From assembly GCF_035456085.1 (NCBI RefSeq), contig NZ_DATIDY010000040.1, forward strand, positions 7,609 to 71,608: DNA of 64,000 nucleotides, written 5' to 3'. The position numbers and the translations under genes are program-made. The notes under the pieces are model-generated. The model had not been told where the DNA came from and made no database searches. It saw nothing but the letters and a program-made list of their open reading frames with translations. This document shows positions 1 to 64,000 of the stretch, in pieces. Positions within the stretch are counted from its first letter, which is position 1. Each line of letters opens with the position of its first letter. The stretch comes from Flavobacterium sp. Lineage in GTDB: Bacteria > Bacteroidota > Bacteroidia > Flavobacteriales > Flavobacteriaceae.

Positions 1-2055
1 AGACCCAACCAAGAGGAGATAATCAACTGTATACTTTCTGGAAAAGATACTTTAGCAATTATGCCAACCGGAGGTGGTAAATCGATTTGTTTCCAACTAC
101 CTGCTTTGGTATTTTCTGGAATTACTATTGTTATTTCTCCACTTATTGCTTTGATGAAAGATCAGGTTGATAGCCTGAAAGCCAATGGTATAGCTGCTTG
201 TTTTATTAATAGCAGCCAATCTAATGAAGAGCAAGAAATGCATATTCAAAACTTGAAAGACAATAAAGTCAAACTTGTGTATGTTGCTCCCGAAAGTTTA
301 TCGTTTTTGGAAAATGCTTTTAGCCAAATTACTGTAAACTTAATTGCCATTGATGAAGCTCATTGTATTTCTGCTTGGGGTCACGATTTCAGACCAGCTT
401 ACACCAATTTGGGATATTTGAAAAACCGCTTCCCTTCTACTCCAATTCTAGCATTAACAGCGACCGCTGATAAAGCTACACGTACAGATATTTGTGAACA
501 GCTAAATTTAAACAGTCCCAAAATTTTTATATCTTCTTTTGATAGAAAAAATTTAAGTCTGGAAGTAAGACCAGCTTTGGATCGGGTAAAACAAATTATT
601 GATTTTATAAAAAACAAACGGAATGAATCTGGCATCGTTTATTGTTTAAGCCGAAAGACCACTGAAGAACTTGCAGAAAAATTGCAAAAAATTGGAATTA
701 GAGCCAAAGCATATCACGCCGGATTGGATAATAAAATTCGTTCCAAAACTCAGGATGAATTCATAAATGATGAGTGTCAGGTGGTTTGTGCAACAATTGC
801 TTTTGGAATGGGAATTGACAAATCCAATGTTCGCTGGGTAATACATTATAACTTACCAAAAAATATCGAAGGTTATTATCAGGAAATTGGAAGAGCTGGT
901 CGTGATGGATTACCTTCCGAAACAGTATTGTTCGAAAGTTATGGTGACGTAGTCCAATTACAAAAATTTGCTTCCCAAGGGTTGAATGCTGAAGTGCAGC
1001 TTGCAAAACTAGAGAGAATGAAACAATATGCTGATGCTTTGAGTTGTCGCAGGAAAATTTTACTTTCTTATTTTGGCGAACTAGTTCCAGATAATTGTGG
1101 CAATTGTGATATTTGTAACAATCCGCCTGCTTTTTTTGATGGAACAATAATTGCACAAAAAGCGTTTTCTGCTATTATTCGATTACAAGAATCAGAATCT
1201 TTACCGGTTATTGTTGATTTTTTAAGAGGTTCTAAAAATGCATCTATTTATGACAAACAATATCAAAATTTAAAAACATATGGAGTTGGTGCTGATATTT
1301 CCTGGTATGATTGGAATCATTATATTATTCAATTAATTAATTTAGGATTTTGTGAAATAGCTTTTCATGAAAAAAATAAAATCAAATTAACACCATTTGC
1401 TAAAAAAGTTTTATTTGAAGGTGAAAAAGTACAACTGACCAACGTTCAGAAAAAAATAAATCATTCTGAACAAAGCAAAGTTGAAAAAACTAAAACTACA
1501 ACTAATTCTCTTTTTGAGTTTTTAAGAAAGCTTCGTGCAGAAATTGCAAAAGAAGAAGCTGTGCCTGCTTATGTAATTTTTAATGATGCCACTTTAAGAC
1601 AATTAGAAATTGAAAGACCAATGAATGATGAAGAATTTCTAAGTATTGATGGTGTTGGAAAAGCAAAGCTAGAAAAATACGGCAATGTGTTTATGAAAGC
1701 AATAAGTGAATTTCAAAAAATAAAAAAAGAACGTTCCAAAAAAGAAAGTACTACTTATAAAGAAACTTTAGAATTATTCAAAAGTGGTTTGTCTGCTGAA
1801 GAAATTGCAACTAAAAGAAAATTAGGAGTTCCCACAATAATTTCACATCTAGCAAAATTATACACCGATGGGCATCCAATTGATTTAAGTAAATATATTA
1901 ATAAAGATGAAATCTCTAGAATTGCTGAAGCTAAAATTAAACTTGAATCTCCATCAGCATTAAAACCGTATTTTGATTTTTTTGAAGAACAAATATCTTA
2001 TGATAAAATAAGAATAGCTTTAACCGTCCTAGAAAAAGAAAATGTAAGTATATAA
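1..2055 (+). CDS. recQ: ATP-dependent DNA helicase RecQ (5' end lies outside the window)
   Basis: MPTGGGKS Walker A, AIDEAHCISAWGHDFRP, ATIAFGMGIDK, QEIGRAGRDG, Zn/RQC (CRR..CGNCDIC), HRDC and C-terminal HTH. The frame stays open back to base 1 (RPNQEEII...). Confidence 0.97.
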   Translation, partial: RPNQEEIINCILSGKDTLAIMPTGGGKSICFQLPALVFSGITIVISPLIALMKDQVDSLKANGIAACFINSSQSNEEQEMHIQNLKDNKVKLVYVAPESLSFLENAFSQITVNLIAIDEAHCISAWGHDFRPAYTNLGYLKNRFPSTPILALTATADKATRTDICEQLNLNSPKIFISSFDRKNLSLEVRPALDRVKQIIDFIKNKRNESGIVYCLSRKTTEELAEKLQKIGIRAKAYHAGLDNKIRSKTQDEFINDECQVVCATIAFGMGIDKSNVRWVIHYNLPKNIEGYYQEIGRAGRDGLPSETVLFESYGDVVQLQKFASQGLNAEVQLAKLERMKQYADALSCRRKILLSYFGELVPDNCGNCDICNNPPAFFDGTIIAQKAFSAIIRLQESESLPVIVDFLRGSKNASIYDKQYQNLKTYGVGADISWYDWNHYIIQLINLGFCEIAFHEKNKIKLTPFAKKVLFEGEKVQLTNVQKKINHSEQSKVEKTKTTTNSLFEFLRKLRAEIAKEEAVPAYVIFNDATLRQLEIERPMNDEEFLSIDGVGKAKLEKYGNVFMKAISEFQKIKKERSKKESTTYKETLELFKSGLSAEEIATKRKLGVPTIISHLAKLYTDGHPIDLSKYINKDEISRIAEAKIKLESPSALKPYFDFFEEQISYDKIRIALTVLEKENVSI

Positions 2056-3106: not shown

Positions 3107-5692
3107 TTAAGCAGAGTTTCTACTTGCGTTAGTATTTCCAAAAAGAGAACGAGTAACTATCTTTTCATAAACTTTTATTAAGTTTTGGTCTGGATTTTCA
3201 TTCTTATTAAGTTCACTAATTTTTAATAAAGCATATTGTTGTATTGTCAACAGTGGCAATACTATACGTTCTCTCATTTCAATCGAAGCTATACCGTCTG
3301 GATAATTTTCCATCAGTTCTTTATGGCCAGCAATTTTTAATAACAACCTTTTTGTATCTAAAAATTCATCGTAAATAATTTGCCAGAATGCACCAAATTC
3401 AGGATCATTTTTCATGTATGCCGTTAAAGGGAAAAATGATTTTGCCAATGACATCATACTATTTTCAAGTAACGTTTTAAAGAATAATGAATTGTTGTAT
3501 AAATTCTGAACTTTATCCCACTGACCATTATCTTCAAAATGTTTCAATGCTGTACCTACACCAAAAAATCCAGGAACGTTTTGCTTTAATTGGCTCCAAG
3601 AACCCACAAATGGAATTGCTCTTAAGTCAGCAAAATCAAGTTTTTCAGATTTGCTTCTTTTTGAAGGTCGGCTTCCAATATTGGTTTTGGCGTAATATTT
3701 TAAAGTACTCATTTGTTCCAAATACGGAATAAATTTAGGATGATTTTTAAAACTTAAATACTTATCATATCCTAATTCAGCCAATTTGTCCAAAATATTC
3801 TTTTCATCAGAACTTAGTTCATTTTGACCTTGATTAAATACTTGATTGGCAACACCAGCGCTCAAAAGATTTTCTAAATTGTAACGACAAGAATCTAAGG
3901 TTCCAAAATTAGAACTGATTGTTTGCCCCTGAATCGTTATCTGAATTTCGTTATTTTCAATATTTGGTCCTAGTGATGCATAAAATTTATGAGTTTTCCC
4001 ACCACCACGTGCTGGAGGTCCTCCTCTACCATCAAAAAATATTGCATGAATGCCATACTTTCTGGAAATTGCTGTTAAAGCTTCTTTTGCTTTATAGATA
4101 CTCCAATTTGCCATTAAGTATCCACCATCTTTTGTTCCATCAGAAAAACCAAGCATTATTGTTTGCTTATTATTTCTTTTTTCCAAATGCTTAAGATATT
4201 CAGGATTTGAGTATAATTTCTCCATTTCTAAATGTGCGTTCTGTAAATCGTCCACGGATTCAAAAAGAGGAATAATATCTACTGTTGCATTTTCCCAATT
4301 ACATAATTTGAATAACGCATAAGTTTCCATAACATTCAATGCACTTTCGTTGTTACTTATAATGTAACGGTTTGAACCAAATTCACCATTTTTATCCTGA
4401 ATAGTTTTAATGGCATAAATTGATTCAATTGTTGATCTTGTCATTTCGTTATCAAAATCAGTAGGATCTAAATTTCCTTTTAATTTTGACAAAACATTAA
4501 TTTTTTCAGCTTCGGTCAAAGAAAAATAATTTTCAGGGAATACATTTTCTTTAGATTTTGAATAATAATTTACAATATCATAAAAGACACTTTGGTGAAT
4601 TTTACTGTTTTGTCTAATATCTAAAGTAGCAAAATGGAAACCAAACAAATTCAATCTAATAAGTAAAGCATCTATTTGGTCAACGTATAATGATTGATGT
4701 TGTTCAATTATTATAGTTTTAATTTTAATAAGTTGAGATTTGAATTCTTCATGAGTAATAAATACTTCACCTTTAGAATAAAATACAGAACGATATAATT
4801 TTTGTTCCAATTCCATTACTAAAGAATCAACAACTGGGAAAGTAAGCTTTCTTTTTAAGTTTCTTATTTCAAAATAGTAGCATTTTAAAATCGAAGTTCT
4901 CAAGCGTTCAGCTACTTTAAGAGTAATTTCGGTAGTTACAAATGGATTTCCATCACGGTCACCCCCTGGCCAGAAACCAAGTTTGATTAATGGATTGTTT
5001 ATTGATTCACCTTCGAAAACATTTTTTTGCAGATAATGAATCATCTCTCCAGAAGTATTGTAAAATACATTTTCTAAGTACCAAATTAAACTTACCGCTT
5101 CATCAAATGGATTTGGTTTTTCATTTTGGATAAAAGGAGTTTTACCTAATTGAGCCAATAATTGCTTGATTTCAAGCAAATTATTATTTCTAATTGCTTC
5201 TGTCAAATCATTAATGATTCCTAATACAGGTCCAGGATAAAATTGAGTCGGATGTGCAGTTAAAACAGTACGAACGTTGAAATTTTCTAAGAAATTAATT
5301 AACTCTTCCTTATTGTTTTTAACATCTGATTTTTCTTTGATGTCGCGAAGAGAGCCTCTTCCTTCCATATTATTGACTACTGGAAAAGCAGCATCTTCAA
5401 TAGCATCAAACAAAACTATTTGACGTTCAATATATTGTATAAAATGAAACATCAAATTGATTTTGTCCTTTTCAGAATCACTATGCATATATTTATCCGA
5501 AAAGAAATCAAATATTTCTATTGGAGTTTTTTGTTTTTTGAAACCACTATCACATAGTTCTGCAAAAATTGGCAATAAAACACCTGTATTATCCACAGAA
5601 TCAAATGGTAATGTTATAAATACACTATTGTAAATGTGGTATTTAGATAAAACATTTTGATTAAAACGTTCTATTTTAGGTAACGTGTACAT
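3107..5692 (-). CDS. ppc: Phosphoenolpyruvate carboxylase
   Basis: VLTAHPTQ, WPGGDRDGNPFVT, MLGFSDGTKDGG, FDGRGGPPARGGG, LRAIPFVGSWSQ. Confidence 0.96.
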   Translation of the reverse strand: MYTLPKIERFNQNVLSKYHIYNSVFITLPFDSVDNTGVLLPIFAELCDSGFKKQKTPIEIFDFFSDKYMHSDSEKDKINLMFHFIQYIERQIVLFDAIEDAAFPVVNNMEGRGSLRDIKEKSDVKNNKEELINFLENFNVRTVLTAHPTQFYPGPVLGIINDLTEAIRNNNLLEIKQLLAQLGKTPFIQNEKPNPFDEAVSLIWYLENVFYNTSGEMIHYLQKNVFEGESINNPLIKLGFWPGGDRDGNPFVTTEITLKVAERLRTSILKCYYFEIRNLKRKLTFPVVDSLVMELEQKLYRSVFYSKGEVFITHEEFKSQLIKIKTIIIEQHQSLYVDQIDALLIRLNLFGFHFATLDIRQNSKIHQSVFYDIVNYYSKSKENVFPENYFSLTEAEKINVLSKLKGNLDPTDFDNEMTRSTIESIYAIKTIQDKNGEFGSNRYIISNNESALNVMETYALFKLCNWENATVDIIPLFESVDDLQNAHLEMEKLYSNPEYLKHLEKRNNKQTIMLGFSDGTKDGGYLMANWSIYKAKEALTAISRKYGIHAIFFDGRGGPPARGGGKTHKFYASLGPNIENNEIQITIQGQTISSNFGTLDSCRYNLENLLSAGVANQVFNQGQNELSSDEKNILDKLAELGYDKYLSFKNHPKFIPYLEQMSTLKYYAKTNIGSRPSKRSKSEKLDFADLRAIPFVGSWSQLKQNVPGFFGVGTALKHFEDNGQWDKVQNLYNNSLFFKTLLENSMMSLAKSFFPLTAYMKNDPEFGAFWQIIYDEFLDTKRLLLKIAGHKELMENYPDGIASIEMRERIVLPLLTIQQYALLKISELNKNENPDQNLIKVYEKIVTRSLFGNTNASRNSA

Positions 5693-5727
5693 AATTATAC
5701 TGTTATTTGGTTATAGTTAATTTTACA

Positions 5728-5757
5728 TAAAAAAACCTCAAGAGTACACTTGAGGTT
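5728..5757 (-). terminator. Intrinsic terminator after the Lrp gene
   Basis: AACCTCAAG-agtaca-CTTGAGGTT hairpin with an A-run on + (U-tract on -). Confidence 0.7.
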
Positions 5758-5784
5758 ATATTTACATATAAGCAATCAAGATTT

Positions 5785-6264
5785 TTACATTTCTTTGAAA
5801 ATGGTATGCATCAAGCGCTTCTTATCATTGATACTTTCTTCAAGAGAAATCATAGTTTCAGTTCTATAAACGCCATCGATATCATCAATCATAAAGATAA
5901 CATCTTTTGCATGCTTAGTATCCTTTGCTCTAATTTTACAGAAAATATTGAATTTACCAGTAGTAACAGATGCTACTGTTACAAATGGAATCTCATTAAT
6001 ACGCTCTAAAACAAATTTAGTTTGAGACGTATTGTTAAGAAAAACACCTACATAAGCAATAAATGAATATCCTAATTTATCATAATCAAGAACTAATGAA
6101 GATCCCATAATAATTCCAGCATCTTCCATTTTTTTAACTCTAACATGCACCGTTCCAGCTGAAATCAATAATTTTTTAGCAATGTCAGTAAACGGAACTC
6201 TTGTGTTGTCTATCAACATATCTAAAATCTGGTGATCTACTTCATCTAAACGAAACTTACTCAT
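5785..6264 (-). CDS. Lrp/AsnC family transcriptional regulator
   Basis: N-terminal HTH (PFTDIAKKLLISAGTVHVRVKKMEDAGII) plus RAM domain. Confidence 0.93.
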   Translation of the reverse strand: MSKFRLDEVDHQILDMLIDNTRVPFTDIAKKLLISAGTVHVRVKKMEDAGIIMGSSLVLDYDKLGYSFIAYVGVFLNNTSQTKFVLERINEIPFVTVASVTTGKFNIFCKIRAKDTKHAKDVIFMIDDIDGVYRTETMISLEESINDKKRLMHTIFKEM

Positions 6265-6340
6265 AATTCTTTTATTATATGGTTATTTTATACTTAAAAA
6301 GTTAAAATTATAAATTAAAATTAAATAATCTGCAAAAAAA

Positions 6341-7495
6341 TCATTTTTTTATTTTTCCATTAACGAAAAACACTTTATGATCAAAATTAAAATTAGCCAT
6401 TTGTCCAATTTTTGGAGAATTACCTAAATCATCGTGATATAAAGCTCCTTTTGCATCATATTCGAAATGACCGAATTTTTCTTTTAAATCACCAATTTCA
6501 ACTATATAAGAATTAAAATTTAATTTATTATCAATTAACTCTTCTTTATACTGAGCGACAAAATTCGTAATTATTTCAATACCATCATAATTTATTTTGA
6601 CATTTTTATACATAAAATCAAAAAATACAACATTATTCTGAGGAATGTTTAAATATTTATCATTTCTATTATGAACTATATCGTTTTCGTTAAGAATAAT
6701 GAAACTTGAAACTAAAGACATAAATACGAATTTTCTTGTTTTTTCTCTTTCGTAATCATCTTGAAAATGACCAGCTTCAAATAAAATTGTAGGAGTTCCT
6801 AAATATTGAAAAGTATCTCCAATACAATTAATATTAAAAGAATCATCAAATCTTCCAATTTGTCCGGGAATATATTTTTGCAACACTTCATTTATGCCAG
6901 CTATCAAATTAATTGCTTTCAATCTTGATTCATTGACTTCCCTTTCTTCGTTATATGATGGAGCTAAAAAAGAAAGAGTAGCAGGTTTACCAGTATCCGC
7001 AACGCCGAAAATGGTACGCTGATCATGAAGATTGAAACAGAAATCTGGTTTAAATTCTTCATAAACCGCTCTCAGAACTTTACTTTCTGGTTGAGAAAGA
7101 TCTTGTGAATCTCTGTTTAAATCAATATTGTTTGCATTGGCTCTGGTATATAACTCAGCACCATCGGGATTCAACATCGGAATGCAGTAAAATGTAAAAG
7201 TATCTAAAAGTTGATTAGCTAAGTCAGAACCATTATTTAGAAGATTAATAAAATCAAATAATGCTTTTGTAGTTGTACTTTCATTACCGTGCATTTGTGA
7301 CCAAAGATAAATTTTTATCTTACCGTGTCCTTTTTGATAACTATAAATTGGTTTCCCTAAAATTGATTTTCCAATTATTTTTACATCCTTTTTAATGGAA
7401 TCTTTATTTAATAATGGTTCAATTTCATTCAAAGTAATATAACGCCCTTGAATTGTATTTTCTTTATTCTGATTAAATAGTTGTTCTAAATCCAT
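6341..7495 (-). CDS. M14 family zinc carboxypeptidase
   Basis: HGNE, NPDG, DLNR, NLHDQ and ILFE motifs. Confidence 0.88.
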   Translation of the reverse strand: MDLEQLFNQNKENTIQGRYITLNEIEPLLNKDSIKKDVKIIGKSILGKPIYSYQKGHGKIKIYLWSQMHGNESTTTKALFDFINLLNNGSDLANQLLDTFTFYCIPMLNPDGAELYTRANANNIDLNRDSQDLSQPESKVLRAVYEEFKPDFCFNLHDQRTIFGVADTGKPATLSFLAPSYNEEREVNESRLKAINLIAGINEVLQKYIPGQIGRFDDSFNINCIGDTFQYLGTPTILFEAGHFQDDYEREKTRKFVFMSLVSSFIILNENDIVHNRNDKYLNIPQNNVVFFDFMYKNVKINYDGIEIITNFVAQYKEELIDNKLNFNSYIVEIGDLKEKFGHFEYDAKGALYHDDLGNSPKIGQMANFNFDHKVFFVNGKIKK

Positions 7496-11429: not shown

Positions 11430-12851
11430 TTACACAAAACTATCATCCTTAAATCCTATCAAATATAGCTTATTTTTGGCTCTAGTCATAGCGGTGTATA
11501 ACCAACGAATGTAATCTCTGTCGATTCCATTCGGCAGATAAGGTTGTTCTATAAAGACTGTATTCCACTGTCCTCCTTGCGATTTATGACAGGTAATGGC
11601 ATAAGAGAATTTAACTTGCAGTGCATTGAAATATTCGTTCTCTTTTACTTTTTGAAACTTTTTGTATTTGGTAGTTTCATTTTCATAATCTTTCATCACT
11701 TCCTGATACAATCTGTTTGATTCTTCAAAAGTTAATGATGGCGACTCACTTTTTATAGTGTCCATTAAAAGTACGGTTTCAAACGGCTTTTGATCAGGGT
11801 AATCAATCATTCGGATTTTTACTTTGGCAAATTTAAAACCGTATAATTCTTTGATTCCGAACATTTCTAAAACTTCGATAATATCACCATTGGCAATAAA
11901 TCCCGCTTCATCCGAATCCTTTAGCCAAAAATAATTATTCTTCACCACCATCAAGAAATCGCCTGTTGATAGTTCACTTTCTTTATCAAGGATTTTGGTT
12001 CTAATTTGTTCATTGTATTGATTCGCTCTTTTATTGGAACGGACAATAAAAGCCGTGTCTTCGATGCTGTAATTACTATAAGCTGAATTAATAGCATCTT
12101 GAATATCATAACCGTCAATCAGCCGGACAATGTCTTTGAATTTTCGGACATTGAACTTGAATTCGGATATGAAAGAATCTTTTAATAATTCTCTTAATTC
12201 GGTGGCGTTGTACAAGATCCCTGAGTTTTCTTCCTGACGCATTACTTCGTCAAGCTCGATATGTTCTACTTCTTTATTATAATGAAAACTTAAAGTTTCA
12301 ATATCCAGAGCTGGGCTTACTTCTAAATTTACCGGTGGTAGCTGAGCAGTATCTCCCAACAGTATCATTTTGCAATTGGTTCCTGAGTATACATAGGAAA
12401 TCAAATCATCGAGCAAAGAGCCGTTTTCATATAATTTGGAATCCGAATTAACATCGGAAATCATCGAAGCTTCATCGACTATGAAAATGGTGTTTTTGTG
12501 TTTGTTTTGCTGTAAAGTGAATGAAACGCCTCCACCTGAATTTTTCTTTGGAAAGTATATTTTTTTATGAATTGTAAAAGCAGGTTTATTCGAATAATTT
12601 GAAATTACTTTGGCCGCACGACCAGTTGGAGCTAACAAAACATACTTTTTATTAATATCCAATAGACTATTTACAATCGTAGAAATCACGGTTGTTTTTC
12701 CTGTTCCGGCATATCCTTTTAGCACAAAAATCGTATCATTATGAATGTCAGTCAAAAAAATGGCTATCTTTTGAAAAAAAATATCCTGATTATACGTGAG
12801 TTGAAAAGGAAACTTTTTTTGTAAATGATTATAAAATGCAGAGGAGTTCAT
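11430..12851 (-). CDS. RecD-like SF1B ATP-dependent helicase
   Basis: GYAGTGKT, APTGRAAK, VDEASM, GDTAQLPPV, YAITCHKSQG, YTAMTRAK. Confidence 0.88.
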   Translation of the reverse strand: MNSSAFYNHLQKKFPFQLTYNQDIFFQKIAIFLTDIHNDTIFVLKGYAGTGKTTVISTIVNSLLDINKKYVLLAPTGRAAKVISNYSNKPAFTIHKKIYFPKKNSGGGVSFTLQQNKHKNTIFIVDEASMISDVNSDSKLYENGSLLDDLISYVYSGTNCKMILLGDTAQLPPVNLEVSPALDIETLSFHYNKEVEHIELDEVMRQEENSGILYNATELRELLKDSFISEFKFNVRKFKDIVRLIDGYDIQDAINSAYSNYSIEDTAFIVRSNKRANQYNEQIRTKILDKESELSTGDFLMVVKNNYFWLKDSDEAGFIANGDIIEVLEMFGIKELYGFKFAKVKIRMIDYPDQKPFETVLLMDTIKSESPSLTFEESNRLYQEVMKDYENETTKYKKFQKVKENEYFNALQVKFSYAITCHKSQGGQWNTVFIEQPYLPNGIDRDYIRWLYTAMTRAKNKLYLIGFKDDSFV

Positions 12852-51862: not shown

Positions 51863-54800
51863 ATGAATGCTTCTGAAAAACAAACTAATCAAAATATAAA
51901 CTCATCATTTCCAGTGGTTGGTATCGGAACCAGCTATGCCGAAATTGATAATTTAAAAACTAGTATTGCCAATCTTCCGCTCGATTCCGGGATGGCTTTT
52001 TTGGTATTTGAAGATTTGGCCGCCAGACAACATCAAAATTTAACCGAAGAAATTAGTTTGCATACCAAACTTCCAGTACATGAAATTGTCAGTACAATAG
52101 ATTTATCTCCGAATCATATTTATGTGATTCCTCCTGGAAATTTTTTAACCTGGGAAAATGGCGACCTTATGCTTAAACCCGCTATCCGAAGTAGCAAAAC
52201 CACAAACAGTCTTGATATATTCTTTTATTCGCTTGCGCAAAAATATTACAGCTATGCCGTAGGTCTTTTGTTGTCATGGTCAACGATGGATGGTGTTTCT
52301 GGGTTAAAAACAATTAGGGAATTTGGAGGTGCGACCATTTCGGCAGTAACCAAAAGCGGGTTTGTTCTCAATAAAACCACTTCAGATTTTATAGATTACA
52401 TTACATCGTCAGAACAAACAACTTCGATACTTCTCGAGATCAATAAAAGTTACTTGGCCAACCATGCCTATCAGGAACAAGAGGTCACTGTAGAGGAACA
52501 GAATATTTTTAACAGCATTGTCAACCTTGTAGTTTTAAGGTCTGGAACTAATTTTCATAACTATAAACCACAAACACTCCGCAGAAGAATTGCCAAGAGA
52601 ATGGTTTTTACCAAACAGGAAACGGGGGAACAATATCTTAATTTATTAAAAAACAGTCCAGCAGAACAGGATTTATTGTTTAATGATTTCCTGATTCCGG
52701 TAACGTATTTTTTTCGTGATCCGCAGTTTTATGATAGCTTGTCACAAATTGTTTTTCCTTCTCTGATCGAAAGATTGAGCGATAACGAATTGCGAATTTG
52801 GTCTGCTGGATGCTCCACAGGTGAAGAGGTTTATTCGCTAGCCATTGTGTTGGATGAATATTTGCAAAAAATTAATAACAGAAATATATCGGTAAAGATT
52901 TTTGCTTCTGATCTTTCGCTCAAATGTATTGAAAAAGCTCGCGCAGGTATTTACACGCTTCAGGATTTAAAAAATATAGATGCCAAAAGAATCGAAAAAT
53001 ATTTTATAAAAAGAGAAAATGGATACCATGTCAAAAAAGCGATACGGGACAATTGTGTTTTTGCTATGCATGATCTAACAAAGGATTTTCCGTTTTCACG
53101 AATTGATTTTATTTCATGCAGAAATGTCCTGATTTATTTTAATACTGAACTTCAAAATCAGGTGCTTACTTCGTTTCATTATGCACTTAAGGAAAATGGT
53201 TTTCTGTTTCTTGGAAAAGCTGAATCGGCTTATAGCCAACAAAATTTATTTACAGCAGTCGAAGAAAAAGAAAAAATTTATATTCGAAAAAATGTAGAAA
53301 GCGACCTTGTTATTCCTAATCTCATTAAAGATATCAATTTCCTCAGAAACCAAACTGCCGAACCAATAACTCCTTTACTGGCTAAAAAAGATTTTAGAAA
53401 AATTATTTCTGATATTCTGCTCGAAAGCTATTCGCCAGCGGCTGTTTTAATAAATGAAGATCTCGAAATCGTGTATTTTCATGGTGACACAAGTCCATTT
53501 TTACAGCCACCGCCGGGCAAACCGAGTTTTAATATTATGAACATGGCACCTCAGGAACTGCGGTTTTCTTTAAGAAATGCCATTTTAAGAGCCCGAAACG
53601 AGAAAAAAAACTTTGCTGCAGACAATATAAAAATCAAAAGTCAGGCGTTTTTAGTTTCGTTTGAGGTGGTGTATTTGGCCGCGCATACAGATTTGTTGAT
53701 GATTATTTTTTATAGAAAGTCAGGCAAAGGAGAAACATTTAATGGTGTGGATATTGATCCGAATAATGAAGAATTAATCATGCTTCAAAATGATTTTAAG
53801 CAGTTAAGCGAAGAACAACAAATTTATTTTGAAGAACTTCAAACCAGTAATGAAGAATTGTCCCGACGTACTGAAGAATTACAGCTTTTGAATGAACAAC
53901 TGGAAGTCGCTGCAGAAGAACTTCGGTCTAATAATGAAGAGCTTTCGTTTACAAACGAAGAACTTAATGACCGCCGTAAAGAATTAGCTTCGATGCGAAA
54001 TTTTTACGAATCAATTGTAAAAACAATTAAAGAGCCGCTGCTTATTATAGATAAAAATTTTATCGTTCACAGCGCCAATCCAGCTTTTTACAGCTATTTT
54101 GAAATGCAAGAAGAACACACAGAAGAATTTTCAATATTTGATTTGGGAAATTCTAATTGGAATACTGCCGAGTTTAAAGAATCTGTTCTAAAAAAAATCA
54201 GCCGCAACGAAACGGTAGACAATATTAAAATTCAATTTAATGAAAGTGGTGGCAAAGAAAAAACTATGCTAGTAAGCACCGCCTTCATTGAAGAATCTAT
54301 ACCGAAAGGAATGGTGCTGCTCGCTTTTGAAGACATTACTGAATCTGAGGAATATAATAAATCCTTACGGGCCAAAAATATCCAGCTTTCCAAACAAAGT
54401 CAACAACTGAAATCATTCACTGCGGCAGCTAGTCACAACCTTTTAGATCCGGTGAGTAAGATTTCGATGTTTGCCAAAAAAATCATTGATAGTGAAAACA
54501 ATTTATCTGAGGTTGGAAGATACAACATCAACAGATTATTGTCTGCGGCAAAAAATCTTAATCTGCTAATGGAAGATCTTATCAATTATTCTAAAATTAA
54601 TTTTGAAGAAAAAAAATTCAAAAAAACCGATCTGAATGTGCTGTTAAAGAAAGCGCTGAATACGCTAAAACCAATGATTAAAGAACGTAACGCTGTTATC
54701 GAAGCCGATTTGTTGCCCACCTTAAATGTTATTCCGTATCAAATTCATATGCTTTTTATCCATTTAATTTCAAATGCCATAAAATATGCAAAACAAGATA

Positions 54801-55132
54801 GTCATCCGCAAATAAAAGTAAACGTCCATCAACTTGAATTAGAGGATTTTGACCTTTTGGATGCTAATTCACACACAGAATATGTCAAATTATCTGTTAG
54901 TGATAACGGAATGGGATTCCAAAAAGATTTTGAAACACTTATTTTCAACCCATTTTATAAACTGCAAGGCAATAATATTCAATACGGTACAGGATTGGGT
55001 TTGACATTTGTTCAGCAAATTGTGTGGAATCATAAAGGTTTTATCAGGGCATCCAGTCTTCCAGGCGTAGGTACTTCTATTTATGTTTATTTGCCTTTGG
55101 AAATTTCGTATGCGGAGAAATTAGTGGTGTAG
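51863..55132 (+). CDS. CheB-like (degenerate)-CheR methyltransferase-coiled coil-PAS-histidine kinase hybrid
   Basis: CheB-like N-terminus; CheR (LIPVTYFFRD, IWSAGCSTGEEVYS, CRNVLIYF); EELQTSNEEL zipper; H-box SHNL; NAIKY, DNGMG, GTGLGL. Confidence 0.9.
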   Translation: MNASEKQTNQNINSSFPVVGIGTSYAEIDNLKTSIANLPLDSGMAFLVFEDLAARQHQNLTEEISLHTKLPVHEIVSTIDLSPNHIYVIPPGNFLTWENGDLMLKPAIRSSKTTNSLDIFFYSLAQKYYSYAVGLLLSWSTMDGVSGLKTIREFGGATISAVTKSGFVLNKTTSDFIDYITSSEQTTSILLEINKSYLANHAYQEQEVTVEEQNIFNSIVNLVVLRSGTNFHNYKPQTLRRRIAKRMVFTKQETGEQYLNLLKNSPAEQDLLFNDFLIPVTYFFRDPQFYDSLSQIVFPSLIERLSDNELRIWSAGCSTGEEVYSLAIVLDEYLQKINNRNISVKIFASDLSLKCIEKARAGIYTLQDLKNIDAKRIEKYFIKRENGYHVKKAIRDNCVFAMHDLTKDFPFSRIDFISCRNVLIYFNTELQNQVLTSFHYALKENGFLFLGKAESAYSQQNLFTAVEEKEKIYIRKNVESDLVIPNLIKDINFLRNQTAEPITPLLAKKDFRKIISDILLESYSPAAVLINEDLEIVYFHGDTSPFLQPPPGKPSFNIMNMAPQELRFSLRNAILRARNEKKNFAADNIKIKSQAFLVSFEVVYLAAHTDLLMIIFYRKSGKGETFNGVDIDPNNEELIMLQNDFKQLSEEQQIYFEELQTSNEELSRRTEELQLLNEQLEVAAEELRSNNEELSFTNEELNDRRKELASMRNFYESIVKTIKEPLLIIDKNFIVHSANPAFYSYFEMQEEHTEEFSIFDLGNSNWNTAEFKESVLKKISRNETVDNIKIQFNESGGKEKTMLVSTAFIEESIPKGMVLLAFEDITESEEYNKSLRAKNIQLSKQSQQLKSFTAAASHNLLDPVSKISMFAKKIIDSENNLSEVGRYNINRLLSAAKNLNLLMEDLINYSKINFEEKKFKKTDLNVLLKKALNTLKPMIKERNAVIEADLLPTLNVIPYQIHMLFIHLISNAIKYAKQDSHPQIKVNVHQLELEDFDLLDANSHTEYVKLSVSDNGMGFQKDFETLIFNPFYKLQGNNIQYGTGLGLTFVQQIVWNHKGFIRASSLPGVGTSIYVYLPLEISYAEKLVV

Positions 55133-61598: not shown

Positions 61599-62426
61599 TT
61601 AGAATGGTAAGTCATCTATCTCATCAATTGGGTTGTTGCGCCTTAAATCCAATAAATTGCCATTTATGTTTGCTTCAATTGAATCAGCTTCTATTAAGTT
61701 GCCTTCTCTAATTTTTTGAGCAATTGTAGAATTTGCAAAATTGAAAGCATGAATATATAATCGTTGAGATGCTCTTGTCATCGCAACATATAATAGCTTT
61801 AGATCTGTTATTCCATCAGCATTAGCCATAATACAAATCCGACTTTCAAGCCCTTTTGATGAATGATATGTTGTAATAATTAATGTATTCTCAATTATTT
61901 CTTTGGTAACTTTTGCGTTAGATTGAATTTGGGGTGATAAGATCGAATAAAACTGTTGTGCATTTTGAAGTGTTGGGAACAAAATCATAATGTCTCCATA
62001 ATTGTATCCAACTATATTTATTAAGTTATGAAGTAAGTCAGCTATAGTGTTTGGTCCTCCCTCAATAAATTGAATCTCGCTCATTAAATTTGTTTCATTA
62101 TCAATCCCGTTCTTTCCTTCATAGAAACGTTCAACTTCTCTTTTTAATGTTTTATCTGTAAGTAATACTTTTAGCGCAAGATCTATGTGACTTTTTCCAG
62201 ACCTATATGTATGCTTAAGTAACTTACTTCTTCCTCTGATTTTAATCCCTAATTGCTCCCAACTGTGTTCTCTTGGATTGTATATACTTTGCAATCTGTC
62301 ACCTGCAAGAAATATGTTTTCCTTTAGTTCATTTTCATGATTATGTTTCTTGCAAATCTTAATACAAAGTTTTATCCAATCGTCATAAAAGTCTTGGTAT
62401 TCGTCAATTAGGACAGCATCATACAT
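61599..62426 (-). CDS. SF1 (UvrD-like) helicase C-terminal half with an SSB-like DDLPF tail
   Basis: IDEYQD Walker B, AGDRLQSIY, TYRS, TYHSSKGLE, LLYVAMTRA; ends IDEIDDLPF*. Confidence 0.85.
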   Translation of the reverse strand: MYDAVLIDEYQDFYDDWIKLCIKICKKHNHENELKENIFLAGDRLQSIYNPREHSWEQLGIKIRGRSKLLKHTYRSGKSHIDLALKVLLTDKTLKREVERFYEGKNGIDNETNLMSEIQFIEGGPNTIADLLHNLINIVGYNYGDIMILFPTLQNAQQFYSILSPQIQSNAKVTKEIIENTLIITTYHSSKGLESRICIMANADGITDLKLLYVAMTRASQRLYIHAFNFANSTIAQKIREGNLIEADSIEANINGNLLDLRRNNPIDEIDDLPF

Positions 62427-63427
62427 GGGACTGCTTTTTGAATTGCCTGATTTGGAAGTTCACCATTCCAAAATACTTCACTTGGATATTGTGGAACGCA
62501 AATATTTGCAATTTCTAGAGCTAGTTTATGAAAGGTGGAAATGAAGATATTTTCTCTTTCAATCCCCATATATAGAAAATCATTGTTCAACATATTCATC
62601 CTATTTTCTAATTTTCTTGCCAATGACCTATTATAAGTGACAATTTTAATTTTCCATGTAGGATTTTCTTTCAGCAGATGAATTGCCCGTGAAAGTAATA
62701 TAACTGTCTTGCCACTCCCGGGAACTCCACTTACCATATAATGCCCATTAGGGATTCTTTTCGCAAATTGTTCTTGGGAAGAATCTAATGCTTTAATTGT
62801 AGATAAGATTTCATCATTGTTACCTATATTTTCAACGTCGAGGTTAGTAGTGTCTAGAATTTTAATTTCAGGGAATAAAATACTTCTTAGAACCAACAGT
62901 TGTCCTTGCTGAATTAAACATGATGAATCACCAAATAACTCATTAAATCCAAGATTTCTTAGTTTTTCACTCAAAATTACTTTTGATGGTGGTTGATGTA
63001 ATACGTCTCCAAGTTTTGAATGTTCGCTTAAAGTCATATTTGGAAGAACAACAATACTGTAAAGATTATAGCACGGATTAGCATTATTATCTAATAATCT
63101 TATATCTGATTCAAAAAGTCCTTTTGAGAGATTGAAGTATTGGTTTGCTTTAAAAGCAGGATTGTCGTCTACCTTTCCTGTTTTAAGATTAACTTTTAAT
63201 CTGTTTATACTAGAGATATAATTCAAACTCCAGTCTTTAACTTCAATTATTGATACACCTTTGTATGGGTCAATTAATATAAAGTCGGGTTCTAGATTTC
63301 TTATTCGTGGTTTTAGGTATAAAAAAGCTTGATAATTTGTTGGGGAGTATAGACTTTTAATTTTACTAAAAACCTTTTCTTCACCCAAAGTAAATTCACT
63401 GTCGTTTCCTATTACTATAATACTCAT
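62408..63427 (-). CDS. NERD (PD-(D/E)xK) nuclease plus helicase N-terminal half; frameshifted relative to 61599-62426
   Basis: EPDFILID..KGVSIIEVKDW, QANQY-like KANQY, SQEQFAK Q-motif, GVPGSGKT Walker A, VTYNRSL. Confidence 0.85.
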   Translation of the reverse strand: MSIIVIGNDSEFTLGEEKVFSKIKSLYSPTNYQAFLYLKPRIRNLEPDFILIDPYKGVSIIEVKDWSLNYISSINRLKVNLKTGKVDDNPAFKANQYFNLSKGLFESDIRLLDNNANPCYNLYSIVVLPNMTLSEHSKLGDVLHQPPSKVILSEKLRNLGFNELFGDSSCLIQQGQLLVLRSILFPEIKILDTTNLDVENIGNNDEILSTIKALDSSQEQFAKRIPNGHYMVSGVPGSGKTVILLSRAIHLLKENPTWKIKIVTYNRSLARKLENRMNMLNNDFLYMGIERENIFISTFHKLALEIANICVPQYPSEVFWNGELPNQAIQKAVPCMMLS

Positions 63428-63593: not shown

Positions 63594-64000
63594 TTATTCA
63601 GTTTCACAAATATATCTGTAAACACTTGACATCACAGAACCTGGAATAATTTTTTCGCCTTGTGTGTCATAATATTCCGGTCGTCGTGTTGGATTTCCAT
63701 TTTTATCATATTTTATTGCGTCAGAAGATGAATATTCTTTTTCTGCACAATCCATTTTAATATATTCAAGAGTATAACCTCCACCAGTTTTTATTAATTT
63801 TCCACTCTTATTTTTAATAGTTTTGATTGGTTCGGTTATTTTTAACCAAAATTCTTTTGTTCCGTAATTATCTTTTTCAAAATGTATATAAAGTTCATTA
63901 CCACTTTTAGAAGATGTTATATATTGAAATTCATCATCAGTTTGAGAAAAGGTTTTGCTTGATATTATTAAAATTAATAAAGTGAATAACGTTTTTTTCA
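63594..64000 (-). pseudogene. Secreted small protein (surface-adhesin-E-like), frameshifted; ATG at the window edge
   Basis: (A)TG KKTLFTLLILIISS...EFWLK...; one extra A at 63788-63791 continues as KTGGGYTLEYIKMDC...IIPGSVMSSVYRYICETE*. Confidence 0.55.

What the first reader, a model, noticed from the sequence alone, without database searches (positions are those of the whole stretch)
61599..61628. The nuclease-helicase ends in an SSB C-terminal-tip mimic (IDEIDDLPF*)
Seen: the last codons read GAT GAG ATA GAT GAC TTA CCA TTC TAA, after a low-structure linker beyond helicase motif VI. Established: the acidic DD(I/L)PF tip is the conserved SSB C-terminus that docks into pockets of SSB-interacting proteins such as RecQ, PriA and ExoI, and several defence nuclease-helicases (Nhi, Hna) respond to phage SSBs. 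Inference: the tail may recruit the enzyme to host replisome partners, or act as an autoinhibitory self-ligand displaced by a phage SSB, which would give a built-in sensing mechanism.
Basis: partly seen in the sequence, partly recalled or inferred. Interest (0 to 1): 0.66.

Follow-up and report, generated by a model that had tools for sequence, protein, structure and literature searches.

The report
SSB-tail mimic on broken nuclease-helicase
A candidate anti-phage nuclease-helicase of a Flavobacterium-like soil bacterium ends in the same five residues (DDLPF) that bacterial single-strand-binding protein uses to recruit its partners; close relatives keep this tail, so it is probably a functional docking tag, but the copy in this window is split by a one-base deletion.

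Summary
On the minus strand, 61602-61628 reads I-D-E-I-D-D-L-P-F, followed by TAA at 61599-61601. The tip is far more than chance and is under selection. Eight distinct relatives (59-95% identity) all end in DDLPF. Between the two subclades the linker in front of it is only 21% identical, and the tip codons differ synonymously. AlphaFold2 predicts the last 25 residues as disordered in two runs. The tip matches the SSB tip reported for Flavobacteriaceae (DLPF). Similar tips (DDSPF, DEVPF, DDDVPF, DEDLAPF) occur in three separate lineages of the same NERD + UvrD-like family, and most members have none.

There are two corrections. First, the gene in this window is not intact. A 1-nt deletion at about 62430-62433 splits it into a 339-aa ORF (NERD, Walker A) and the 275-aa tail-bearing ORF. 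Second, the family is PADLOC candidate 'C3a187 NERD+UvrD', not Nhi or Hna.

The most likely mechanism is inferred, not shown: the tail docks into SSB-tip pockets of SSB-client proteins. AlphaFold2 gives no support for the self-ligand idea.

The parts
61602..61616 (-). The tip D-D-L-P-F (GAT GAC TTA CCA TTC), the SSB-Ct-like short linear motif at the extreme C-terminus
   Evidence: It is invariant in 8 distinct relatives with synonymous codon differences (TTA/TTG, CCA/CCT, TTC/TTT, GAT/GAC).
61599..61601 (-). TAA stop codon directly after the terminal Phe, which leaves a free C-terminal Phe carboxylate
61617..61676 (-). Predicted disordered, hypervariable linker (about 20 residues, ...SIEANINGNLLDLRRNNPIDEI) between the last helix of the helicase and the tip
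   Evidence: AlphaFold2 gives pLDDT <50 for residues 585-609 of P0001 in two runs. Linker identity between subclades is 21%, against 64% for the preceding core and 100% for the tip.
61599..62426 (-). ORF2, 275 aa: the C-terminal part of the helicase (motif II DEYQD at 62391-62405, UvrD_C, motif VI AMTRAS at 61767-61784) plus the tail. Its ATG is an internal Met codon of the intact gene.
   Evidence: (PF13361, PF13538, PF00580), and (deposited as a separate protein).
62408..63427 (-). ORF1, 339 aa: NERD nuclease-related domain (about 63044-63388; conserved D48/D53...E62-x-K64) and the N-terminal part of the SF1 helicase with Walker A GVPGSGKT (62705-62728). It ends 7 codons after the frameshift.
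   Evidence: PF08378 2.9e-06, PF00580 8.9e-11; PDLC01087; conserved columns.
62429..62434 (-). Site of the 1-nt deletion (GCA-GT|CCC, against GCA AGT CCC, GCT GCC CCT or GCA ACA CCT in intact relatives) that splits the gene
   Evidence: DNA alignment A3, frame comparison with P0001-P0009, and the same sequence in an independent Logan contig at depth 24.

Best explanation
What it is (well supported). The region holds a solitary gene for a roughly 609-aa single-chain NERD (PD-(D/E)xK-type) nuclease fused to a UvrD-like SF1 helicase. It belongs to the PADLOC candidate defence family 'C3a187 NERD+UvrD'. In one Bacteroidota clade this protein carries a flexible C-terminal linker of about 25 residues, ending in a copy of the host-type SSB C-terminal tip (DDLPF-COOH). 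In this window the gene has been inactivated, or at least split, by a recent 1-nt deletion. The tail therefore sits on a 275-aa C-terminal fragment.

How it most likely works in the intact protein (inferred). The tip acts as a short linear docking motif. Its terminal Phe and Leu-Pro fit the hydrophobic pocket that SSB-interacting proteins use to recognise SSB, and the aspartates fit the basic rim of that pocket. Known clients of this kind include RecJ, ExoI, RecQ, PriA, RecG, the chi subunit of the clamp loader and DnaG. The docking would tether the nuclease-helicase to such a partner, or to replication and repair assemblies. This would either bring the enzyme to ssDNA-processing sites or bring a helper exonuclease to the strands it unwinds.
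For: - Domain assignment: Pfam NERD, UvrD, UvrD_C. PADLOC PDLC01087 'NERD+UvrD' at E 6.7e-51 over nearly the full length. The AlphaFold2 model has mean pLDDT 86.7, and its nearest solved folds are SLFN11 and UvrD/PcrA/Rep.
- Tip conservation: all 8 distinct clade members end in DDLPF. Between the two subclades, identity is 100% for the tip, 21% for the linker and 64% for the preceding core. The tip codons differ synonymously.
- Disorder: the tail is predicted disordered in two AlphaFold2 runs.
- Invariance of L, P and F: this points to a specific pocket rather than a generic acidic tail (only 2-4 acidic residues in the last 12).
- Host match: the window is Flavobacterium-like. SSBs of Flavobacterium psychrophilum and Psychroflexus torquis end in DLPF, whereas gammaproteobacterial SSBs end in DIPF (PMC3991886). 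The D. radiodurans SSB peptide EDDLPF binds RecJ through the Phe pocket and an Asp-Lys contact (PMC4846377).
- Recurrence within the family: DDSPF in the sister clade, DEVPF in a distant member, and DDDVPF and DEDLAPF in a 29%-identical lineage.
- Defence-type setting: the gene has no conserved neighbours. Copies sit beside a C5 DNA methylase, an HsdR remnant and a Card1 CARF nuclease.
Against: - No binding partner was identified or could be modelled here, so the recruitment step is inference from what SSB-Ct peptides do.
- A single tail on a presumably monomeric enzyme must compete with about 2000 tetravalent SSBs per cell (figure from 10.1101/797431).
- Most family members do without the tail, including another Flavobacteriaceae member (P0095). 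Three clade members (P0004, P0007, P0008) lack it.
- The defence role of the family itself is only a PADLOC candidate assignment.
- The copy in this window is frameshifted, so nothing can be said about function in this organism.
- The host's own SSB was not in the window. Its tip is inferred from two other Flavobacteriaceae.
Confidence: 0.5

Rival explanations
1. Cis-acting autoinhibitor. The tail folds back onto the enzyme's own ssDNA groove, or onto an SSB-Ct-type pocket of its own. It keeps the nuclease-helicase off until ssDNA, a host client or a phage SSB displaces it.
For: SSB's own tip binds its OB fold in competition with ssDNA (10.1101/797431, citing Kozlov 2010, Shishmarev 2014 and Su 2014). 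Hna is held in an autoinhibited state that a phage SSB relieves (PMC13381803). Many helicases (RecQ, PriA, RecG, DinG) do have SSB-Ct pockets (PMC10164576, PMC11981726).
Against: Two AlphaFold2 runs, with a deep alignment and with a tail-enriched alignment, leave residues 585-609 undocked at pLDDT 27-42. This is weak negative evidence. The tail has only 2-4 acidic residues in its last 12, so it is a poor DNA mimic. Tail-less relatives are the majority, so the core enzyme does not need this brake.
Confidence: 0.15
2. Targeting to SSB itself. The tip binds the DNA-free OB fold of host SSB, as SSB's own tip does. The enzyme would then be stored with the free SSB pool or its condensates and delivered where ssDNA appears.
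For: eGFP carrying only the last nine SSB residues, and the isolated tip peptide, become enriched in SSB droplets through the tip-OB fold contact. The eGFP fusions did so only under PEG crowding. ssDNA competes with that contact (10.1101/797431).
Against: The reported interaction is weak and was shown only for E. coli SSB in vitro. In that study the eGFP fusions did not partition without PEG. Nothing in the sequence data distinguishes this model from client docking.
Confidence: 0.12
3. Degradation tag. The C-terminal LPF is read by ClpXP or an adaptor, which keeps a potentially toxic nuclease at a low level.
For: In some Streptococcus mutans strains the last three SSB residues, LPF, are sufficient for ClpXP-dependent degradation of GFP (PMC5143411). 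A large proteobacterial subclade of the same family ends in ...GxAA, which is reminiscent of ssrA-type ClpX tags (resemblance only).
Against: The LPF tag was not recognised in E. coli, in other streptococci or in several S. mutans strains, and it was not degraded by purified ClpXP (PMC5143411). The essential host SSB carries the same tip. The two aspartates are as invariant as LPF, which a three-residue degron does not explain.
Confidence: 0.08
4. No present function: a chance or relic sequence on a decaying gene.
For: The window's copy is frameshifted. Some clade members lack the tip (P0004, P0007, P0008).
Against: The expectation is about 1e-6 per protein, and none of about 1150 background ORFs has such an end. 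The tip is invariant across 59-95% identical intact proteins, beside a 21%-identical linker, with synonymous codon changes. Similar tips arose independently in other lineages.
Confidence: 0.05

Closest known systems
Bacterial SSB C-terminal tip (SSB-Ct; DDDIPF in E. coli, (E/D)DDLPF in many other phyla)
   Same: It sits at the extreme C-terminus, ending in an acidic-acidic-(I/L)-Pro-Phe carboxylate, after a disordered linker of non-conserved sequence. The tip is identical to the last five residues of the D. radiodurans peptide EDDLPF seen in the RecJ pocket (PMC4846377). It also matches the DLPF ends of two Flavobacteriaceae SSBs (PMC3991886).
   Different: It is attached to a nuclease-helicase, not to an OB-fold tetramer, so there is one tail per chain instead of four per SSB. 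The third acidic residue is replaced (I-D-D-L-P-F). The linker of about 20 residues is shorter than most SSB linkers. The 31-residue C-terminal domain of F. psychrophilum SSB is comparable in size.
T7 gp4 primase-helicase acidic C-terminal tail, compared with the T7 gp2.5 SSB tail
   Same: It is a helicase whose flexible acidic C-terminal tail resembles the tail of the cognate SSB and competes with it for the same docking sites on a partner (gp5/trx basic patches; 10.64898/2026.05.20.726333). That both T7 tails end in an aromatic residue is from my own knowledge, not checked here.
   Different: It belongs to a phage replisome, is a hexameric SF4 helicase, and has a different tail sequence and partner. 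Here the mimicry is of the host SSB tip, on a candidate defence enzyme.
PADLOC-DB candidate family PDLC01087 'C3a187, NERD+UvrD'
   Same: It has the same two-domain architecture and aligns over nearly the full length (model positions 14-541 of 559, E 6.7e-51 for P0001).
   Different: The model ends before the tail, so the tail is a clade-specific addition. The family is only a candidate defence system. I found no experimental test of it in the literature searched.
Nhi (SERP2475) and 'Nhi-like' single-protein nuclease-helicase immunity
   Same: It is one roughly 606-aa polypeptide with an N-terminal PD-(D/E)xK-type nuclease followed by an SF1 helicase. Phage SSB C-termini matter for the outcome of infection (10.1101/776245). 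NERD is listed for 'Nhi-like' (PMC10952713).
   Different: Nhi's helicase is of the DUF2075/Dda-like SF1B type and has no SSB-like tip reported. The PADLOC Nhi model matches only the P-loop region at E 0.0075. In Nhi the full-length phage SSB protects the phage.
Hna
   Same: It is a single-protein helicase-nuclease defence whose activity is controlled through an SSB (phage 5A SSB breaks the autoinhibited dimer; PMC13381803).
   Different: Hna has an SF2 helicase at the N-terminus and the nuclease at the C-terminus. Its regulation is by dimerisation and ATP, and no SSB-tip mimic is described.
Schlafen group III (SLFN11) and UvrD/PcrA/Rep
   Same: These are the best structural matches of the AlphaFold2 model: SLFN11 7zep E 1.5e-15 and UvrD 4c30 E 8e-13. 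SF1A helicases commonly use C-terminal extensions to dock partners (own knowledge).
   Different: Sequence identity is 12-15%. The N-terminal nuclease fold and the tails are different.

Membership tests
SSB-Ct-type short linear motif | The motif lies at the extreme C-terminus and ends in Phe with a free carboxylate | tested here: met
   TTC (Phe) is directly followed by TAA at 61599-61601.
SSB-Ct-type short linear motif | Consensus of acidic residues followed by (I/L)-P-F | tested here: met
   The end is D-E-I-D-D-L-P-F. DDLPF is identical in 8 relatives. It matches DLPF of Flavobacteriaceae SSBs (PMC3991886) and EDDLPF of D. radiodurans SSB (PMC4846377).
SSB-Ct-type short linear motif | Preceded by an intrinsically disordered linker whose sequence is not conserved | tested here: met
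   pLDDT is <50 for the last 25 residues in two AlphaFold2 runs. Linker identity between subclades is 21% and the length varies.
SSB-Ct-type short linear motif | Binds the hydrophobic pocket and basic rim of SSB-interacting proteins | not testable with these tools
   No complex prediction or binding assay was available.
Bacterial SSB protein | N-terminal OB-fold ssDNA-binding domain | tested here: not met
   The domains are NERD + UvrD-like helicase. The protein is a mimic of the tip only, not an SSB.
NERD+UvrD nuclease-helicase (PADLOC candidate C3a187) | N-terminal NERD domain with PD-(D/E)xK-type residues | tested here: met
   PF08378 E 2.9e-06 on ORF1 residues 14-128. D48, D53, E62 and K64 are nearly invariant in 93 sequences.
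NERD+UvrD nuclease-helicase (PADLOC candidate C3a187) | SF1 UvrD-like helicase with Walker A, motif II and motif VI | tested here: met
   GVPGSGKT, DEYQD and MTRAS are present. PF00580, PF13361 and PF13538 match. PDLC01087 E 6.7e-51.
NERD+UvrD nuclease-helicase (PADLOC candidate C3a187) | Both domains in one uninterrupted polypeptide | tested here: not met
   In the window a 1-nt deletion splits the gene. The feature is met in homologues P0001-P0006 and in L064, L066 and L068.
NERD+UvrD nuclease-helicase (PADLOC candidate C3a187) | Protects against phage | not testable with these tools
   There is only context evidence: neighbours are a C5 methylase, an HsdR remnant and a Card1 nuclease.
Nhi | Significant match to the Nhi profile, with a DUF2075-type SF1B helicase core | tested here: not met
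   PADLOC Nhi PDLC02372 gives E 0.0075 on ORF1 residues 214-261 only. PF09848 gives only sub-threshold or faint hits.
Hna | N-terminal SF2 helicase followed by a C-terminal PD-(D/E)xK nuclease | tested here: not met
   The order here is nuclease then helicase, and the helicase is SF1. The Hna architecture is described in PMC13381803.

The most novel reading that the evidence does not exclude
The tail is a built-in bait. By displaying the host SSB tip, the nuclease-helicase would be grabbed by phage replication or recombination proteins that have evolved to hijack host SSB (lambda Red-beta is a reported SSB binder, PMC6393309). That contact would both bring the enzyme to phage DNA intermediates and switch it on. 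This would be a decoy-type sensor made of five residues. Its repeated independent appearance in the family would reflect selection by such phages.
Probability: 0.1. Interest if true: 0.85.

Novelty: new variant of a known kind. Interest (0 to 1): 0.57.

Why it matters
The SSB tip is the best-known protein-recruitment tag in bacterial DNA metabolism, and it is regarded as a property of SSB. I found no report of a cellular non-SSB enzyme carrying it (literature searches). The nearest precedent is the T7 gp4 helicase tail.

A conserved, repeatedly acquired copy on a candidate defence nuclease-helicase suggests that the tag can be borrowed to plug an enzyme into the SSB client network. It also fits the growing list of defence systems whose activity depends on SSBs (Nhi, Hna, AbpAB, Retron-Eco8, Hachiman, DARNA).

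The idea is directly testable with a five-residue deletion or a Phe-to-Ala change in an intact homologue. It would also give a simple sequence rule for finding other tip-bearing proteins.

Tried and rejected
- Programmed frameshifting or slippage at the A5 run (62435-62439). I considered this because a -1 shift there would restore a full-length protein. I rejected it. Intact relatives simply have one more base at GCA(A)GT, the run is too short for transcriptional slippage, there is no X_XXY_YYZ heptamer, and nothing else supports recoding.
- Assembly error. This is unlikely, because an independent Logan contig has the same sequence at depth 24. Only contigs, not raw reads, were available, so minority intact alleles cannot be excluded.
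- Scan of genome contigs with the family alignment. The patterns were too generic (Walker A, DEYQD). Only one true family member, an archaeal one, was returned, so I could not do a taxon-by-taxon comparison of tail tip and host SSB tip.
- Viral contigs. There are no close relatives, so this is not a phage gene.
- Plasmids. Only relatives of about 25% identity were found, and the E. coli plasmid one has no tail.
- Conserved partner gene. tblastx of the flanks against eight related loci found similarity only within the gene itself. Two 248-aa neighbouring ORFs are unrelated.
- The DEVPF member P0117 has no tail-bearing close relative, so conservation could not be tested in that lineage.
- AlphaFold2 test of cis docking was negative twice.
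- Base composition around the gene is unremarkable at 29-36% GC.
- Promoter and terminator scans are not above the shuffled expectation.

Full report
**1. The observation**

The feature lies on the minus strand. Read 5'->3', window 61628->61599 is ATT GAT GAG ATA GAT GAC TTA CCA TTC TAA, that is I-D-E-I-D-D-L-P-F-stop. It closes the ORF 61599..62426(-), which is 275 aa.

This ORF carries helicase motif II (DEYQD), UvrD_C/UvrD_C_2 Pfam matches and motif VI (AMTRAS). About 55 residues separate motif VI from the end.

**2. The gene is split in this window**

Immediately upstream, and overlapping by 19 nt, lies a second ORF, 62408..63427(-), of 339 aa. It has a NERD nuclease-related domain and the Walker-A half of a UvrD-like helicase.

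All relatives are single proteins of about 570-610 aa that cover both ORFs. Around the junction, the intact proteins read ...QKA(S/T/A)P(M/I)YDAVLIDEYQDF. The window reads QKAVPCMMLS* in one frame and KSSPMYDAVLIDEYQDF in the other.

A DNA alignment with three intact loci shows one missing base at about 62430-62433. An independently built Logan contig from the same soil-metagenome run has exactly the window's sequence at depth 24. I therefore treat the deletion as real in the dominant population.

Both halves are otherwise undamaged and 84-88% identical to intact relatives, so the lesion is recent. The ATG of the tail-bearing ORF is simply an internal Met of the intact protein. I considered programmed recoding and rejected it (see Tried and rejected).

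**3. What the protein is**

- Pfam finds NERD plus UvrD-helicase, AAA_19 and UvrD_C.
- PADLOC's best model is PDLC01087 'C3a187, NERD+UvrD' at E 6.7e-51 over nearly the whole length. The Nhi model reaches only E 0.0075 on the P-loop.
- NCBIfam has no equivalog.
- No solved structure of the family exists. By sequence the nearest is PcrA at 1e-05.
- The AlphaFold2 model of the 88%-identical intact homologue P0001 is confident (mean pLDDT 86.7, pTM 0.81). It resembles SLFN11 and UvrD/PcrA/Rep most closely.
- The PD-(D/E)xK-type residues of NERD and the helicase motifs are invariant or nearly so in 93 aligned members.

The window is a Flavobacterium-like chromosome. It has SusC/SusD pairs, and one of its histidine kinases falls in the same 90%-identity cluster as a Flavobacterium aquicola protein.

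The gene has no conserved neighbours. It is absent from viral contigs and has only 25%-identical relatives on plasmids. Related copies sit next to a C5 DNA methylase, an HsdR remnant and a Card1 CARF nuclease.

Together this describes a solitary, patchily distributed nuclease-helicase of the kind found among defence genes. Its anti-phage activity is not established.

**4. Is the tail more than chance, and is it conserved?**

From amino-acid composition I estimate about 1e-6 for D-D-[IL]-P-F at a given C-terminus. Six of these are members of this family, and the other four are not acidic.

Among the closest relatives, P0001, P0002, P0003, P0005, P0006 and the metagenomic loci L066/L067 and L068 all end in DDLPF. 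With the window, that makes eight distinct sequences.

| Segment compared between the two subclades | Identity |
|---|---|
| 30 residues after motif VI | 64% |
| Linker (also varies in length) | 21% |
| Five-residue tip | 100% |

The tip codons differ synonymously between loci: TTA/TTG, CCA/CCT, TTC/TTT and GAT/GAC. Selection therefore acts on the peptide. P0005 even has a second, internal DSLPF.

Two AlphaFold2 runs, one with 93 sequences and one with a 17-sequence alignment enriched in tail-bearing members, both leave residues 585-609 at pLDDT below 50. A conserved tip on a variable, disordered linker is the signature of a short linear motif, and it is the same layout as SSB itself.

**5. 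Distribution in the family**

In a neighbour-joining tree of 93 members, the DDLPF sequences form one clade. That clade also contains three members without the tip (P0004, P0007, P0008). Its sister pair P0116/P0120 ends in DDSPF. P0117 (DEVPF) sits in a distant clade and has no tail-bearing close relative.

In the search of 50%-identity representatives, one further member at 29% identity ends in ...SWSDDDVPF. Its nearest relative ends in ...DSRDEDLAPF. So SSB-like tips arose at least three times in this family.

Most members have no such tip, including a Flavobacteriaceae member (P0095) and all named archaeal members. Many end shortly after motif VI. Others carry different conserved C-terminal motifs:
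- xDYLSSF or IDEYLSF
- an HTH-like ...GGIKSRLKKLGLIK
- KYPxKSEHLxEPDLW
- SWFRF
- a large subclade ending ...GxAA

These are listed. The C-terminus of this family looks like a slot for lineage-specific add-ons.

**6. Does it match the host's SSB?**

The host SSB is not in the window; no other ORF there ends in PF. Published data give DLPF as the last residues of the SSBs of Flavobacterium psychrophilum and Psychroflexus torquis, both Flavobacteriaceae. The gammaproteobacterial SSBs end in DIPF and the Desulfotalea SSB in DVPF. The F. psychrophilum C-terminal domain is only 31 residues long (PMC3991886, Table 1).

The D. radiodurans SSB peptide EDDLPF has been seen bound to RecJ, with Phe in a deep hydrophobic pocket and an Asp-Lys salt bridge (PMC4846377). 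The window's tip is thus the phylum-appropriate version of a structurally characterised ligand.

I could not perform a taxon-by-taxon co-variation test, because the genome scan returned almost no family members.

**7. Mechanism**

These points are shown:
- The motif, its position and its conservation.
- The predicted disorder.
- Recurrence in the family.
- The match to Flavobacteriaceae SSB tips.

Function is inferred. I favour client docking. SSB-Ct peptides bind their partners autonomously, and L, P and F are as invariant as the aspartates. The tail is only mildly acidic, which argues for a specific pocket rather than DNA mimicry. SF1A helicases typically use C-terminal extensions to meet partners (own knowledge). 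T7 gp4 provides a precedent for a helicase tail that competes with the SSB tail for the same sites (10.64898/2026.05.20.726333).

The rivals are:
- a cis-autoinhibitory tail, which AlphaFold2 does not support;
- binding to the OB fold of free SSB, and hence co-storage with SSB (10.1101/797431);
- an LPF degron (PMC5143411), which was strain-specific even in the organism where it was found;
- no function.

The bait or decoy idea is given as the novel case.

**8. Relation to Nhi and Hna**

The analogy with SSB-responsive nuclease-helicases is reasonable at the level of 'works like'. Membership fails for both (see Membership tests).

In Nhi, phages with a full-length SSB escape and those with a truncated SSB are sensitive (10.1101/776245). 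In Hna, a phage SSB dissolves an ATP-dependent autoinhibited dimer (PMC13381803). Neither is reported to carry an SSB-like tip.

**9. Verdict**

This is a real, selected and recurrent SSB-tip mimic on a candidate defence nuclease-helicase. To my knowledge, and within the literature searched, it is not described elsewhere. In this window it is attached to a gene that a one-base deletion has broken. It is a new variant of known kinds (SSB-Ct motif; NERD+UvrD enzymes). The mechanism is plausible and easily testable, but unproven.

Noticed in passing
window 62408-63427 and 61599-62426 (junction about 62430-62433): The NERD-UvrD gene is split by a 1-nt deletion into two overlapping ORFs. The 275-aa C-terminal ORF is on record in public databases as a protein in its own right.
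   Followed up: yes
L072 (Ga0316603_10003354) 5592-7317, compared with L070: A 46-48% identical relative is also interrupted: a 269-aa ORF, with the rest of the match in another frame. Its near-twin L070 from a sister sample is intact. Repeated inactivation would fit a costly or toxic gene.
   Followed up: partly
Family-wide (P0009-P0026, P0035-P0112, P0280-P0396): The C-terminus after motif VI is a hot spot for lineage-specific conserved short motifs. These are xSLSDY(L/I)SSF and SEID(D/E)YLSF; archaeal HTH-like ...GGIKSRLKKLGLIK and KYPxKSEHLxEPDLW; proteobacterial ...SWFRF...; and a large subclade ending ...K(H/Q)KxGxAA, which resembles ssrA-type ClpX tags.
   Followed up: partly
window 61-2055 (+): A RecQ helicase cut at its 5' end by the window edge (DEAD, Helicase_C, RecQ_Zn_bind, RQC, HRDC, HTH_40). 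In E. coli, RecQ is a classic client of the SSB tip. It lies 60 kb from the tail gene, so no linkage is implied.
   Followed up: no
window 11430-12851 (-): A 473-aa RecD/Pif1-like SF1 helicase that matches the PADLOC candidate PDC-M16A at E 1e-113. It may simply be the housekeeping RecD2/Pif1-like helicase of Bacteroidota.
   Followed up: no
window 51863-55132 (+): A 1089-aa fusion of CheB methylesterase, CheR methyltransferase, PAS, HisKA and HATPase domains.
   Followed up: no
L087 5640-6800 and L088 2504-3664: The family member that ends in ...DSRDEDLAPF (P0279) is followed directly by a Card1-type CARF endonuclease gene in two independent assemblies.
   Followed up: no
L068 7966-10195: The intact DDLPF-bearing copy lies just after the ATP synthase operon, next to a C5 cytosine DNA methylase and an unannotated 359-aa ORF. 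This is a possible restriction-modification pair.
   Followed up: no
window 63594-64000 (-): Upstream of the gene is a small ORF that starts at the window edge with a signal-peptide-like sequence, (M)KKTLFTLLILIISSKTFSQ. No family match was sought.
   Followed up: no
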